Shown here: positions 13,948-40,305 of the stretch, piece after piece
Layout of the letters: each line of letters opens with the position of its first letter
Numbering within the stretch: position 1 is the stretch's first letter
Assembly (NCBI GenBank): GCA_964016885.1
Contig: OZ024742.1
Coordinates: 76,880,001 to 76,944,000, forward strand
Source: Eledone cirrhosa
Taxonomy: Eukaryota
Length of the DNA: 64,000 bases
Direction: 5' to 3'
Notes under the pieces: model-generated
What the model was told of the DNA's origin: nothing
Seen by the model: only the letters and a program-made list of their open reading frames with translations
Database searches by the model: none
Translations under genes and position numbers: made by a program

Positions 13948-13991
13948 AGCCGACATGACATGTTTCGCTTTTGTTGAAGCTTATCAAGGCC
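13948..13991 (-). ncRNA. Type I hammerhead ribozyme, U3-A8 core variant
   Basis: Minus strand: ggcc-TTGATAA-GCTT-caacaa-AAGC-GAAA-CAT-gtc-ATG-TC-ggct. Confidence 0.75.
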
Positions 13992-14265
13992 AACTACCCC
14001 GCCCGTCTGCTGAGATCAATGATGTTATATTCTTATAGAAATCTACTAAATAATCAGGAGCTGATTATGCAGAGCGGTTGTTGGTCAGGCAGAAATTAAA
14101 ATACATTATATTTACATCCATATATATATTGCTATTTCAGAGCTACAATTCTAATTTTTAATTTCTGCCTGACCAACAACCGCTCTGCATAATCAGCTCC
14201 TGATTATTTACTAGATTTCTATAAGAATATAACATCATTGATCTCAGCAGACGGGCGGGGTAGTT

Positions 14266-14309
14266 GGCCTTGATAAGCTTCAACAAAAGCGAAACATGTC
14301 ATGTCGGCT
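14266..14309 (+). ncRNA. Type I hammerhead ribozyme, U3-A8 core variant
   Basis: ggcc-TTGATAA-GCTT-caacaa-AAGC-GAAA-CAT-gtc-ATG-TC-ggct. All three stems can form; predicted cleavage after GUC. Confidence 0.75.
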
Positions 14310-14454
14310 TATCTCCTCCTGTCTGCTGAGATCGAAGTGAGTGAATTTGTCACTACTTTAAAACAATAGCTTACGGTCTTCAAAATGCTTTTAATTAAGC
14401 ATAAATTGTATTGCAAAATACATTATATTTACATCCATATATATATATATATAT

Positions 14455-17400
14455 CGAGATCGCTTAATCTCCTTCCATCCTAACTAATGCCAAAACGAGG
14501 GTACTCATTGTCTTCTTCATGATGAAATCGATGACAATTAGGAAAAAGAAAGGCGAAAGGATGCAGCCTTGTTGAACACCCGTCAAGATGTCAAATATTT
14601 CCTTGTTTCCGTCCTTTGTCCTAACGCAGCACCTGGAATGTCGGTACAGCGACCTGAAGATGTTAATATATTTCTCTGAGACACCGTAGAGTCTTACAAT
14701 CTTCCACAATGACTCCAGATGAACACTGTCGAAAGCTTTCCTGAAGTCAATGTAGTTAACAACAAGGGACTTGTGGAAATCCCGAAATTGTTCAATGATA
14801 TTTCGCAGAGTGAAGATCTGCTCTGAACAAGACCTTCCACTGCGGAAGCCAGCCTTTTCGTCTCGAAGATGACGATCTACTTCTGCTCTCAGCCGGTTCA
14901 GGATGAGTGTGCAGAATAGCTTCCCTGGCACTGATAGCAATGTGATCCCTCTCCAGTTGTTGCAGTCGCTGACACAGCTCTTCTTCGGTAGTGGTACAAT
15001 CATTCCATTTTCCCAGTCTTCCGGCACCTCCTCTTCTTGCCAAATCACATTGCATAAATGGGTGAGCTGCTCCTCTATTACAACCTTGTCGTGCTTCAGA
15101 AGCTCTGCAGGAATCTCATCCAGCCCTGCCGCTTTGTTATTCTTTTGGCAGCGGATGGTCTTGGCCACCTCAGCTCTTGTGATGTCGTCTAGTCGTACAT
15201 CCAGCCGGTAGCTCGCTCGCTTCCTCCCAATCAAGCTCGAAGACTGTGTTGGGGGATGGCTGATTGAGGACCTCACGAAAGTGTTCGTTCCACCTCTGGG
15301 CCTGCTCTTCACTGGCTGCACGCATCCGACCATCTTTGCTCTTGATTGGCAAACTGCTTCCACTTCGTCCTCCAGTTAGCTCTCTGACGATCCGGTACAG
15401 CGTCTTGGAATCATTTCGATCTGCTGCCACCTGTGCTTCTGCAGCCCGATCTTCTAACCACTGGCGCTTGTCTTTTCGACAGCTCTTCTTTACTTCCTTG
15501 TCAAGACGTCTGTACTCTTTGTCCACTTCCTTCCATTGCTGTCGAGTTTTGGTTTGATCTCTTTTGTTCTTAACATCCTTCCTCTCGTCAATGAGATTAC
15601 ATGAATTACTGCTGATCCACTGTTCCCGATTGGTCCCCCTACTTCCACCAATAACCAAATCAGCACTCGCCCTGACCGTCTGAGCAAACATCTGCCACTG
15701 GTCGTCATGGTTCTGTGCGTGCTGTAGTTCTTGGAACTTATTCCTGATCTCCAGGTAGAATCCCTTGAGGTGCCTTGGTCTTGCAGGCTTGCGATAGCAT
15801 ATGGCCTCATGATCTTATTTGCTTTGTTCTTCTTCAACCTCATGCGGATTTTTCCAACTACAAGATGATGGTCAGATCCGACGTCTGCCCCTCGGTAGGT
15901 GTGAACATCGAAGAGAGAGGAACGCCACCTTGTGCCAATGCAGATATAATCAATCTCATTCCTGGTGTTGCCATCAGGGGAAGTCCATGTCAACTTGTGA
16001 ATCCACCTATGGGTGAACAATGTATTCCCGATGGAGTGGTTGCTGATACTGCTCAGGGACAGCAACCGTTCCCCGTTGTTATTGGTGGAATCAGCTGAAC
16101 CGTGGTGGCCAATGGCTGAATGCATTTCTCTCCTGTCTCCATCTAGCTTGGCATTGAAATCTCCAATCACCAGCCTAATGTCTGACCTGGGTGTTTATTC
16201 TAGGACATCCTGTAGTTGGATAAATAAGGTATCTTTATCTTCATCTGAGACAGTTTAAGTCGGGGTGTAGACTTGCACTACGGTCACCTTGGCTAACCTT
16301 GTGCTCAATCTGGCAGTAATAATTCGTTCACTCACTGGTCTCCATCCCACAAGAGCCAGTGATACATCTCCGGTGAGGATAATACCAACTCCGTGGACAT
16401 GGTGGTCATCATCACCGGAGTAGAGAATAATCATGTCTCCAATGTCGAGTACTACCCTTCCTGTCCACCTCGTCTCCCTGATTCCCATGATGTCAAGGCG
16501 ATATTCTCTCATCTCCTTCAGCACCTGCTCCATCCGCCCGTCCCTAAAGAGGGTGCGTACATTCCAGGTGCCTACTCTTGTGTTTGATTTTGGCGTTGAA
16601 GATAGGACTTATTCGCGGTCGGGCCTCCTTTCTGATTTGACCCGGCCCCATCATAGGTGCATCCAGGGATGACGTGTCTTCTCTTTTCCGTCGCTCGGTA
16701 TCAAAATGTTTTTTTCTCGTCGTTTTTGTAGCAGTGAAAAGTCTTTACGGGGATAGGGCATCTAACCCCACGCCCCAACCCTCCTCATTTCTCAACAGGG
16801 CATGGGACCGGCTAAGGCGGACTTTGCCGATGACATCGCAGTGATAGGCCATTCCCGAGAAGACCTGCATAGAGATGACAAACGTTCTAAATTACAATGC
16901 AGAGAAAGTTGGTCTGCACATCAGTTGTGAAAAAACCAAGACCATGTCGACAGGTCACCCTCCAAATCCTCCCATCATGGTTGGTCAGCATAACATTGAA
17001 TGTGTAAACAACTTCCAATATATTGGCAGCAACATCTCTGACGATGGGGATGCTGAGGTGGATGTGCGCACATGGCTGGGAAAATCAGCGGCGGTCTTCC
17101 ACCAACTCCGTCCGGTATGGTCAAGGTGTTCCATCGGCAACGTCGTCAAATTCCGTCTTTACATGTCCATTGTAGTACCAACAGTGATAAATGCCTGTGA
17201 GACATGGAAGAGTACGGAAAGTGTATGTAACAAGCTTGATGTATTCCACCGTCTTTGCATTCGGACCATATTGAAAATTTCATGGAGAGACCAAGTTAGC
17301 AACGAGGAAGTGGTTTGGAGGTTAGGATTGGAGAGGTTAAGGGACATTGTCCGGAAAAGGAGACGGCGGTTCGCGGACAACTCCTTCGTTTGCCGGCAGA

Positions 17401-38900: not shown

Positions 38901-38944
38901 ATTTCAACTTGTCAAGCTATTTAAATGTATGTTATTACTCTAAG

Positions 38945-39112
38945 GACGATGGATTGGCAGTATCGGTAGAGAGTCGGACGTCATGCTTTCCAGCATAGTT
39001 ACGTCTGAGTTCAAATAGCCGAGGTTCACTTTGCCTTTCATCCTTACGGGGTCGATAAAATAAAGTACCTGTACTGTGTAATTGCTGGCCTTGTGCCAAA
39101 AGTAAAAACATA
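38945..39112 (+). mobile_element. SINE family A copy
   Basis: GGATTGGCAGTATCGGTAGA..GAGTTCAAATAGCCGAGGTTCACTTTGCCTTTCATCCTTACGGGGTCGATAAAATAAAGTACC. Confidence 0.82.
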
Positions 39113-39264
39113 TTGAGTGCTTAACTATTCATTCCTTATTGTAGCTCGACTTTGCTAGGCCACAGTCAAAGCTTCGATTTTACTAAGCTTCCACACACAC
39201 ACACACACAAACACACACACACACATATATATATATATATATATATATATATATATATATATAG

Positions 39265-40305
39265 TTAGAGAAGCAAAAAATTGCTTATTGTAATCCAGTT
39301 ATTGGTTAAGAAAGCCAGTTTCATGGATGGTTTAAACGTACGGTTAGGGGTAACTCCACAAGTTTGTAAGAATTCACAAGATTAATGAAAACTTAGCATA
39401 CATCAACTGTAACTCAAACCACCCACTATGCATAATTAAATCCATTCCACGCAGCATATCCCTTAGGATCTCCCGCCTCTCATCTAACCGGCAAATCTTC
39501 GAAGAACATGCAGAATACTACAATACCGCATTAGACAAGGCAGGCCACTTAGATAGAGTAGAATATATAGATGAGAGCCTCTGTGAAGCACACACGAACA
39601 CGCATAACACAAACTCCAGAAACACACGCATACACACATTTACGCATAGAACCGCAAAGTATACGGCAAATAGAAGTACAACATCGAAATCAAACAAGTC
39701 ACGCAGTAGAAAATATATTTGGTATAACCCCATATTTAACACCTCTATTAGTACTAACCTACCCTCTACTTTCTTTAGAATAATAAATAGGCACTTTCCA
39801 GATTCACATAGATACAGCAAAATCCTTAACACTAAATCTATTAGACTATCCTACTCCACGGCACCAAATATAGAAGCACACATTAAGATGCTTAACGCTA
39901 AAAAGATACATAACAACACCAGTTAAAAACATTTAGAAGACCATACGGTATTATTTTTAAAGTAGTGACTATATCACTTACTTATTTTCGGCGAAAGAGG
40001 GAGAGTGGTTGACAGTCTGTTTCACGCAGGTTGGCGTTCATCAGAACCACTCACACTCTATCGCTATTTCAGAGCACCAATCCCAATTCCTAATTTTTGC
40101 TGGTCCGGCTACCGCTCTGTATAATCAGCTCCTGATCGTTATTGGAATTCTATAAGAATCCAGCAACTATAGTTTTCGGAGGCAGCAGAGGAGTGCGTGG
40201 TTCTGATGAATGCCATGGTCAGTACTTTAAAAGTGATAGCGTATGGTCTTCTAAATTTATTTAATTAAACATACAGTATATTGCTAAATATACTATACAT
40301 ACATT
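39265..40305 (+). mobile_element. Penelope-like element fragment from a second lineage (WFNPP-type RT C-terminus) followed by inverted and forward terminal segments
   Basis: Manual translation: AYINCNSNHPLCIIKSIPRSISLRISRLSSNRQIFEEHAEYYNTALDKAG...WYNP...HFPDSHRYSKILNTKSIRLSYSTAPNIEAHI. The terminus is homologous to 13786-14440. Flanked by (TA)n. Confidence 0.78.
40003..40052 (-). ncRNA. Canonical type I hammerhead ribozyme
   Basis: Minus strand: GAGTGGTT-CTGATGA-ACGC-caacct-GCGT-GAAA-CAG-a-CTG-TC-AACCACTC. 8-bp stem I, 4-bp stem II, GUC site. Confidence 0.88.

What the first reader, a model, noticed from the sequence alone, without database searches (positions are those of the whole stretch)
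13948..40052. Compensatory covariation of the hammerhead core and stems between two homologous PLE termini
Seen: the flanks at 13866-13920 and 39926-39981 are clearly homologous, as are 14131-14235 and 40063-40167, but the ribozymes at the equivalent position differ. The 40003-40052 copy has CTGATGA with stem II ACGC/GCGT and stem III ACAG/CTGT. The 13948-13991 copy has TTGATAA with GCTT/AAGC and ACAT/ATGT. Known: positions 3 and 8 form a Watson-Crick pair in the active HHR, so C-G to U-A keeps the pair. Inferred: selection for self-cleavage in this lineage.
Basis: partly seen in the sequence, partly recalled or inferred. Interest (0 to 1): 0.72.

Follow-up and report, generated by a model that had tools for sequence, protein, structure and literature searches.

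The report
Retrozyme ribozyme core pair flips repeatedly
Both sites are copies of a small non-coding jumping repeat that carries a predicted self-cutting RNA, and across its related families one base pair in the catalytic core has swapped back and forth between two already published forms without ever spreading in a mismatched form, which likely means the repeat needs a working ribozyme to multiply.

Summary
In detail: two type I hammerheads (U3-A8 at 13948-13991, C3-G8 at 40003-40052, both minus strand) sit at the same place in homologous units. The units are not ends of protein-coding Penelope elements but ~317-nt non-coding retrozyme units inserted as head-to-head arms in (TA)n, with Penelope-type ends. 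Genome-wide, one pattern finds 5095 C3-G8 and 2189 U3-A8 cores but only 201 C3-A8 and 190 U3-G8, the same level as a lethal-site control (G5A, 172): mismatches are decay, not families. A tree built without the ribozyme core forces at least 2-3 paired switches in this lineage (U-A to C-G and back to U-A; AU p=0.006-0.02), and a separate lineage shows another. Because 3-8 pairs only in the active fold, selection on catalysis is likely; cleavage and expression were not tested. U3-A8 in Penelope-associated hammerheads and animal retrozymes are both published, and this scan noted U3-A8 retrozymes before on other DNA of this genome. New here: the quantified control and the reversal. New member of a known kind; interest 0.33.

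The parts
13785..14101 (-). Left arm of a young retrozyme insertion (subfamily F1a): unit positions 30-317 followed by the 29-nt tail (positions 1-29), ending in (TA)n
   Evidence: blastn against the unit, 99-100%
13948..13991 (-). Type I hammerhead, U3 (13987)-A8 (13982), G10.1-C11.1, predicted cut after C17 (13952), GUC site
13922..14019 (-). Extended stem I hairpin (about 25-30 bp with an internal loop) that carries the ribozyme at its tip
   Evidence: fold -49.1 kcal/mol, z -6.4
14098..14446 (+). Right arm, head to head with the left arm: unit positions 289-317 plus one whole 317-nt unit (14127-14443), ending in (TA)n
14266..14309 (+).
39923..40054 (-). Left arm of an older insertion (subfamily F3): unit positions 134-266, cut short at its 3' end where it meets a truncated PLE ORF
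   Evidence: 93% to the F3 unit of L046
40003..40052 (-). Type I hammerhead, C3 (40044)-G8 (40039), A10.1-U11.1, stem III closed by a 1-nt loop (likely needs a dimer), predicted cut after C17 (40011)
   Evidence: dimer need by analogy with PMC4209133 and PMC7229834
40060..40313 (+). Right arm of the older insertion: unit positions 1-156 and 213-315; an internal deletion removed most of its hammerhead (CTGATGA left at 40203-40209)
   Evidence: 89-90% to the F3 unit
39354..39926 (+). Neighbour, not part of the unit: C-terminal piece of a PLE-like RT ORF, cut before the C-terminal endonuclease that its homolog in L001 still has; its stop codon lies in the retrozyme arm

Best explanation
Both sites are insertions of related ~317-nt non-coding repeat units (non-LTR retrozymes) whose predicted hammerhead ribozyme has likely been kept catalytically active by selection, so that core positions 3 and 8 changed only together (U-A to C-G and back to U-A) along the succession of amplifying subfamilies. 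Likely cycle: multimeric arms are transcribed (untested); the hammerheads cut them into monomers that would close into circles (inferred from coral, mussel and axolotl retrozymes); a Penelope-type RT/GIY-YIG protein supplied in trans (partner not identified) would nick (TA)n DNA and copy the RNA from two fixed start points about 30 nt apart, running through the ribozyme site, which gives the head-to-head arms of up to 6.5 units that are seen (shown). A unit whose 3-8 pair is broken would not be cut or circularised and so would rarely found a new subfamily; mismatched copies are single decayed copies (shown by counts).
For: Counts: C3-G8 5095 (control 18), U3-A8 662+1527 (controls 39+8), C3-A8 201 (46), U3-G8 190 (47), lethal-site control G5A 172 (29); net 155 and 143 against 143, whereas independence would give about 1600 each. 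At the two switch points, first 100 listed: 47 C-G, 52 U-A, 1 C-A, 0 U-G of 148; 82 C-G, 12 U-A, 6 C-A, 0 U-G of 249, against 4 G5A in that context and span; hand counts. Trees: 2 paired changes, C-G clade rejected p=0.00019 with only columns 3 and 8 dropped (67 rows); p=0.021 with the core and inner stem I dropped (52 rows); with family F11 added starred branches force 3 changes, p=0.0059 (57 rows). A separate lineage has C-G (F6) and U-A (F7) sisters (flanks 77-81%). 15 natural copies: 89.4% of 348 cells paired, 16 of 24 pairs with changes on both sides, 0 of 500 shuffles as high, slid controls 29-49%; 3-8 is U-A 11, C-G 4, other 0 (rows were chosen with paired cores). Position 7, free in hammerheads, is U, C, G or A in different subfamilies. 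Ends: of 44 arms in 26 young insertions 24 end at unit position 2-3, 18 at 29-40, 2 elsewhere; 15 of 18 two-armed insertions have one of each; no 5' end at the cut site (duplicates merged by hand); this matches the PLE tail and the two RT start sites of PMC11167929 and PMC8557442. The U3-A8 family is the youngest of its ladder (40 scored hits 100% identical; p-distance 0.017). U3-A8 hammerheads are natural and were shown active in vitro (PMC3088659).
Against: No cleavage or expression data for these RNAs. In vitro, hammerhead mutants of an anole PLE inserted as well as wild type and no reads began at the cut site (PMC11167929); 8 of 9 frog retrozyme dimers did not cleave (bioRxiv 10.64898/2026.07.22.740005); metazoan minimal hammerheads cleave poorly (PMC4209133). 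One insertion (L227) has C3-A8 in both arms, so a mismatched template may have been copied once (1 of 5 informative two-core mismatch loci; in L281, L287, L295, L296 the partner is paired; L286 is a junction artefact). Copies are not independent: the evidence rests on about 3-4 events. The free minimum-energy fold of the F1 hairpin is not the hammerhead fold (-50.7 against -45.4 kcal/mol with the core held open). The patterns required the other core bases, so their invariance is partly circular, and they missed GUA-site families (18,930 more matches). In array L203 units share variants in an interleaved way, which a single circular template does not explain. No autonomous partner found.
Confidence: 0.78

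Rival explanations
1. The hammerhead fold is kept for a non-cleaving role, such as a shape bound by the PLE protein or a ligation or folding step; cleavage itself is dispensable.
For: Anole PLE: cleavage needs protein and is not needed for insertion in vitro (PMC11167929). Insertion ends do not fall at the cut site. L227 has a mismatch in both arms.
Against: The 3-8 pair and G5 matter in the active conformation (PMC3884650 passages); both are held at decay level. Related animal retrozymes cleave and accumulate as circles (PMC7229834).
Confidence: 0.12
2. The units are the pLTRs of autonomous PLEs, mostly seen as 5'-truncated ends, not self-standing retrozymes.
For: PLE-type ends, tail and (TA)n target; an RT ORF piece abuts the 40003 copy; frog retrozymes are related to pLTRs.
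Against: Head-to-tail arrays of up to 6.5 units with no ORF between them; the abutting ORF is cut before its endonuclease and the unit is cut too; 14 of 210 loci with PLE protein hits in no fixed place; of 36 loci of a young 784-aa PLE family only L330 holds a unit, far from the ORF. Only one PLE family was checked.
Confidence: 0.07
3. The covariation is a founder effect or module swap: a few master copies happened to differ, or a U-A core was recombined into a C-G unit, with no selection on the pair.
For: Few independent events; tandem units can recombine (interleaved variants in L203); the branching near the first switch is weakly resolved (3 to 5 changes on the best flank-only trees).
Against: Every switch lands on a Watson-Crick pair, on branches of about 0.03-0.09 changes per site for the two inner switches; F2 (U-A) shares its stem II (UAC/GUA) with its C-G sister F3c, not with the older U-A families (CGC/GCG), which argues for point reversal; stems I, II and the long hairpin covary as well.
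Confidence: 0.03

Closest known systems
Metazoan non-LTR retrozymes (Cervera and de la Pena 2020, PMC7229834; Li, Clavereau and Pollet 2026, bioRxiv 10.64898/2026.07.22.740005)
   Same: Non-coding units of 150-450 bp in tandem, low GC, one type I hammerhead per unit, long self-paired hairpin, proposed mobilisation by PLEs.
   Different: Here many subfamilies carry U3-A8, longer stems III (3-4 bp) and often a mismatch at 10.1-11.1; insertions are head-to-head arms with a PLE tail in (TA)n; circles and cleavage are not shown here.
U3-A8 hammerheads of Schistosoma mansoni Cercyon PLEs (PMC4209133) and other natural U3-A8 hammerheads (PMC3088659)
   Same: Same compensatory core swap in a type I hammerhead tied to PLE-type elements (about 1,300 hits in S. 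mansoni).
   Different: Those are minimal motifs without stem III in pLTRs; in the parts read there is no tree of switches and no decay control. Here the swap is traced in both directions along one subfamily ladder.
Penelope-like elements, pLTR with tail (PMC8557442; Poseidon of the anole, PMC11167929)
   Same: Partial tandems, inverted 5'-truncated arm, 30-40 nt tail on one end, AT-rich target, hammerhead within the repeat.
   Different: No RT or GIY-YIG ORF in or attached to the unit.

Membership tests
Type I hammerhead ribozyme | Core YUGANRA...GAAA...UH with three stems, ends open in stem I | tested here: met
   (Rfam models do not reach gathering score)
Type I hammerhead ribozyme | Watson-Crick pair between positions 3 and 8 | tested here: met
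   U-A or C-G in every subfamily majority; mismatches at decay level
Type I hammerhead ribozyme | Self-cleavage after H17 | not testable with these tools
   needs an in vitro assay or end-mapped RNA
Type I hammerhead ribozyme | Loop 1-loop 2 tertiary contact | not tested
   an internal loop follows a 4-bp stem I, but contacts were not modelled
Non-LTR retrozyme | Tandem units of 150-450 bp, each with a type I hammerhead | tested here: met
   316-317-bp units, up to 6.5 per arm; the two window copies are monomer-length arms
Non-LTR retrozyme | No protein-coding capacity | tested here: met
   longest stop-free frame 46 aa in the unit read as a circle
Non-LTR retrozyme | Dispersed, mobile copies | tested here: met
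   100% identical copies on contigs C1-C4; fixed 3' ends, variable 5' ends
Non-LTR retrozyme | Expressed as linear and circular monomer RNA | not testable with these tools
   no RNA holder listed
Autonomous PLE terminus (pLTR) | Repeat flanks an RT plus GIY-YIG ORF | tested here: not met
   one PLE family and 210 loci checked, not the whole genome
Autonomous PLE terminus (pLTR) | Inverted truncated arm, 30-40 nt tail, AT-rich target | tested here: met

The most novel reading that the evidence does not exclude
One genome preserves a dated series of retrozyme subfamilies in which a tertiary pair of the ribozyme's active site flipped at least three times (including a clean reversal) with no amplified intermediate. 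This is in vivo evidence that hammerhead catalysis is required for Penelope-type mobilisation, against the in vitro finding that it is dispensable, and it offers matched natural pairs (F4a/F3, F3c/F2) that differ by little more than the swap. The swap may also be coupled to the cut site: A17 was seen only with C3 and U3 only with C17, as expected if U3-A17 forms a trap like the known C3-G17.
Probability: 0.4. Interest if true: 0.55.

Novelty: new member of a known kind. Interest (0 to 1): 0.33.

Why it matters
Why Penelope-type elements and their passengers keep hammerheads is open: the one in vitro system did not need cleavage for insertion, and many predicted motifs cut poorly. A core pair that forms only in the active fold, and that is swapped repeatedly but never amplified broken, is a genomic argument that catalysis matters in the living cycle, and the near-identical sister subfamilies give ready test pairs. 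The components (U3-A8 variant, animal retrozymes, PLE-type ends) are all published, so this is supporting detail rather than a new system.

Tried and rejected
Rfam scan of the window: 0 matches. RNA evidence: no RNA holder listed; contigs of 4 of the 6 listed runs, kind unknown, were laid: no variant row at positions 3 or 8, and a 347-nt contig that goes back 317 fits tandem DNA or a circle alike, so no use for expression. Autonomous partner: the young 784-aa RT/GIY-YIG family found with the window's endonuclease piece shares no terminal sequence with the unit. My early label 'Naiad-type' for the ORF at 39354-39926 (recalled motif, notebook entry 1) was wrong: its homolog in L001 continues into a C-terminal endonuclease-like region (read by eye, no Pfam hit for the window piece); clade not determined. 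Rolling-circle test by shared variants within arrays was mixed: L185, L012 and L020 share private variants across units, L203 is interleaved. The first flank-only tree (46 rows) gave 2 paired changes but with open branches. Subfamily rule merged F3c into F2 (corrected) and misparsed F9, whose site is GUA. Przybilski and Hammann 2007 (RNA 13:1625) could not be read; U3-A8 activity is cited second-hand from PMC3088659. Literature searches returned no paper tracing repeated 3-8 switches on a subfamily tree; the library is partial and supplements of PMC4209133, PMC7229834 and the bioRxiv preprint, not seen, may hold such alignments.
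Full report
1. Observation. The flanks match 45 of 56 and 81 of 106 columns, the core 23 of 36. An identical U3-A8 motif lies at 14266-14309 (+), and a deleted one leaves CTGATGA at 40203-40209 (+). Each ribozyme caps a long extension of stem I (z -7.9, -6.4 and -4.2 for three window stretches, 0 of 200 shuffles as stable). Rfam has no match in the window at gathering score.

2. What the element is. The window lies in a 3.0-Gb assembly (G000). The 13948 sequence belongs to a very young family (1221 candidates, 40 scored, full-length hits 100% identical) of 317-bp units in head-to-tail arrays and head-to-head arm pairs. 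The 40003 sequence belongs to an older relative (2951 candidates, 40 scored) that aligns with it over the whole unit, about 70-73%. The unit has no frame over 46 aa. In 57 loci of the young family, merged by hand to 26 insertions and 44 arms, 24 arms end at unit position 2-3, 18 at 29-40 and 2 elsewhere, nearly all running into (TA)n; 15 of 18 two-armed insertions have one end of each kind; 5' ends scatter, none at the predicted cut (179/180; nearest 161 and 186); arms reach 6.5 units. This is the PLE footprint with a tail (PMC8557442, passages and section 6 read), which an in vitro study ties to two internal RT start sites (PMC11167929, parts 1-2 of 4 read). Both window sites have this two-armed form. 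No ORF belongs to the unit: 14 of 210 loci had hits to the window's PLE protein pieces, in no fixed place; the ORF piece touching the 40003 arm is cut before the endonuclease-like region that its homolog in L001 keeps; 1 of 36 loci of a young 784-aa PLE family holds a unit, away from the ORF. The element therefore fits the non-LTR retrozymes (PMC7229834, parts 2-3 of 6 read; bioRxiv 10.64898/2026.07.22.740005, parts 1-3 of 5 read), not the termini of coding PLEs.

3. The covariation test. One pattern frame (core, 12-18 N, GAAACA, 3-5 N, TGTC) was counted genome-wide in each state: C3-G8 5095 (reversed-pattern control 18), U3-A8 662+1527 (39+8), C3-A8 201 (46), U3-G8 190 (47). As a yardstick for decay after insertion, G5A in the C3-G8 frame gave 172 (29). 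Net, paired cores are 96%, mismatches are 155 and 143 against 143 for the control, and independence would give about 1600 each. G5A is context-matched to C3-A8 (both TGA to TAA) but not to U3-G8. The frame covers several lineages and misses GUA-site families such as F11 (18,930 matches, first 100 all C3-G8). At the two switch points I counted by hand the first 100 rows listed: 47 C-G, 52 U-A, 1 C-A, 0 U-G (148 in all) and 82 C-G, 12 U-A, 6 C-A, 0 U-G (249 in all), with 4 G5A rows in the latter context and span. Of 21 mismatch loci fetched on purpose (L227, L277-L296), 6 show a second core: in 4 it is paired, 1 is a junction artefact, and L227 has C3-A8 in both arms. On 15 natural copies chosen to span the subfamilies, 89.4% of 348 cells pair, 16 of 24 pairs change on both sides, no shuffle of 500 reaches this and slid partners give 29-49%; rows were picked with paired 3-8 and are related, so this is descriptive.

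4. History. Trees of units with both flanks (rows lacking a collinear flank were dropped: 44; F1 thinned from 26 to 9; 46 of 168 kept plus 6 outgroup rows) give a ladder F10, F5, F4 (U-A), F3, F3b, F3c (C-G), F2, F1 (U-A), with within-family distances falling from 0.36 to 0.017. With only columns 3 and 8 dropped the tree needs 2 paired changes and a C-G clade is rejected (p=0.00019). With the core and inner stem I dropped, starred branches force 2 (best tree 3; p=0.021), and with F11 added 3 (best tree 5; p=0.0059). The root rests on distant, long-branched F10 rows; the count of changes does not depend on it, but the order does. F2 shares stem II with its C-G sister F3c, so the last step looks like a point reversal rather than a module swap. 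An unrelated lineage has C-G (F6) and U-A (F7) sisters. So the 40003 copy shows the derived C-G state and the 13948 copy a return to U-A.

5. Mechanism. Shown: anatomy, copy structure, end positions, paired-only amplification. From established knowledge: C3-G8 is a Watson-Crick pair of the active conformation (PMC3884650, passages; PMC2920678, part 1 of 2); U3-A8 occurs in nature and was shown active in vitro (PMC3088659, passages), and occurs in about 1,300 S. mansoni PLE-type motifs (PMC4209133, parts 1-2 of 4). Inferred: transcription of multimers, cleavage to monomers, circle formation, copying by a PLE protein in trans from two start points. Since 3-8 adds nothing to the secondary structure, its covariation points to selection on the catalytic fold (0.78). 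Against: insertion did not need cleavage for the anole PLE in vitro, 8 of 9 frog dimers did not cleave, L227, the mixed within-array test, and the free fold of the F1 hairpin is an alternative, non-hammerhead tip, which may suit a circle that should not cut itself (inference).

6. Novelty and verdict. The variant, the element class and the PLE footprint are published, and this scan noted U3-A8 retrozymes on other DNA of this genome, including the 317-bp family and a switch (consulted after my reading was formed). Five literature searches gave no paper that traces repeated switches; unseen supplements may. Subfamily names F1-F11 are my own labels. New member of a known kind; interest 0.33.

Noticed in passing
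L330, L333-L362 (G000:C1:498402 onward): A very large, young sister family (F11): 310-311-bp units, C3-G8, short palindromic stem III, GUA site, often U-U at 10.1-11.1; the pattern gives 18,930 matches (control 15), first 100 listed all C3-G8; about 35-39% distant from the window's units.
   Followed up: partly
window 40830-40875 (+): A third hammerhead family (F9, GUA site, stem III ACAG/CUGU around a long loop); this copy is a decayed U3-G8 one with a damaged stem I.
   Followed up: partly
window 61249-61693: Head-to-head repeat of another family with a C3-G8 hammerhead-like motif at 61536-61585 (+); the same family occurs in L327 and L332.
   Followed up: no
window 17548-21352 (+): Frameshifted PLE with RT and C-terminal GIY-YIG-like region; its family has many recent copies with a 784-aa open frame and an upstream 360-450-aa ORF; no hammerhead was found in its 3' region by my scan. 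Non-coding derivatives of its 3' part lie at 22902-25048 and 32917-33924.
   Followed up: partly
subfamilies F4, F5, F3c, F6, F7, F11: The 10.1-11.1 pair at the base of stem II is often a mismatch (A-A, C-A, U-U) in amplified subfamilies, while G-C returned with U3-A8 in the youngest ones.
   Followed up: no
F1 subfamilies: A recent compensatory change in the fourth stem III pair (A-U to U-A) inside the young family; L188 holds a one-sided intermediate.
   Followed up: partly
window 14464-16194 (-), 452-3275, 59743-61221, 28603-29004: Broken LINE-type or other RT fragments (Pfam RVT_1, zf-RVT, weak Exo_endo_phos).
   Followed up: no
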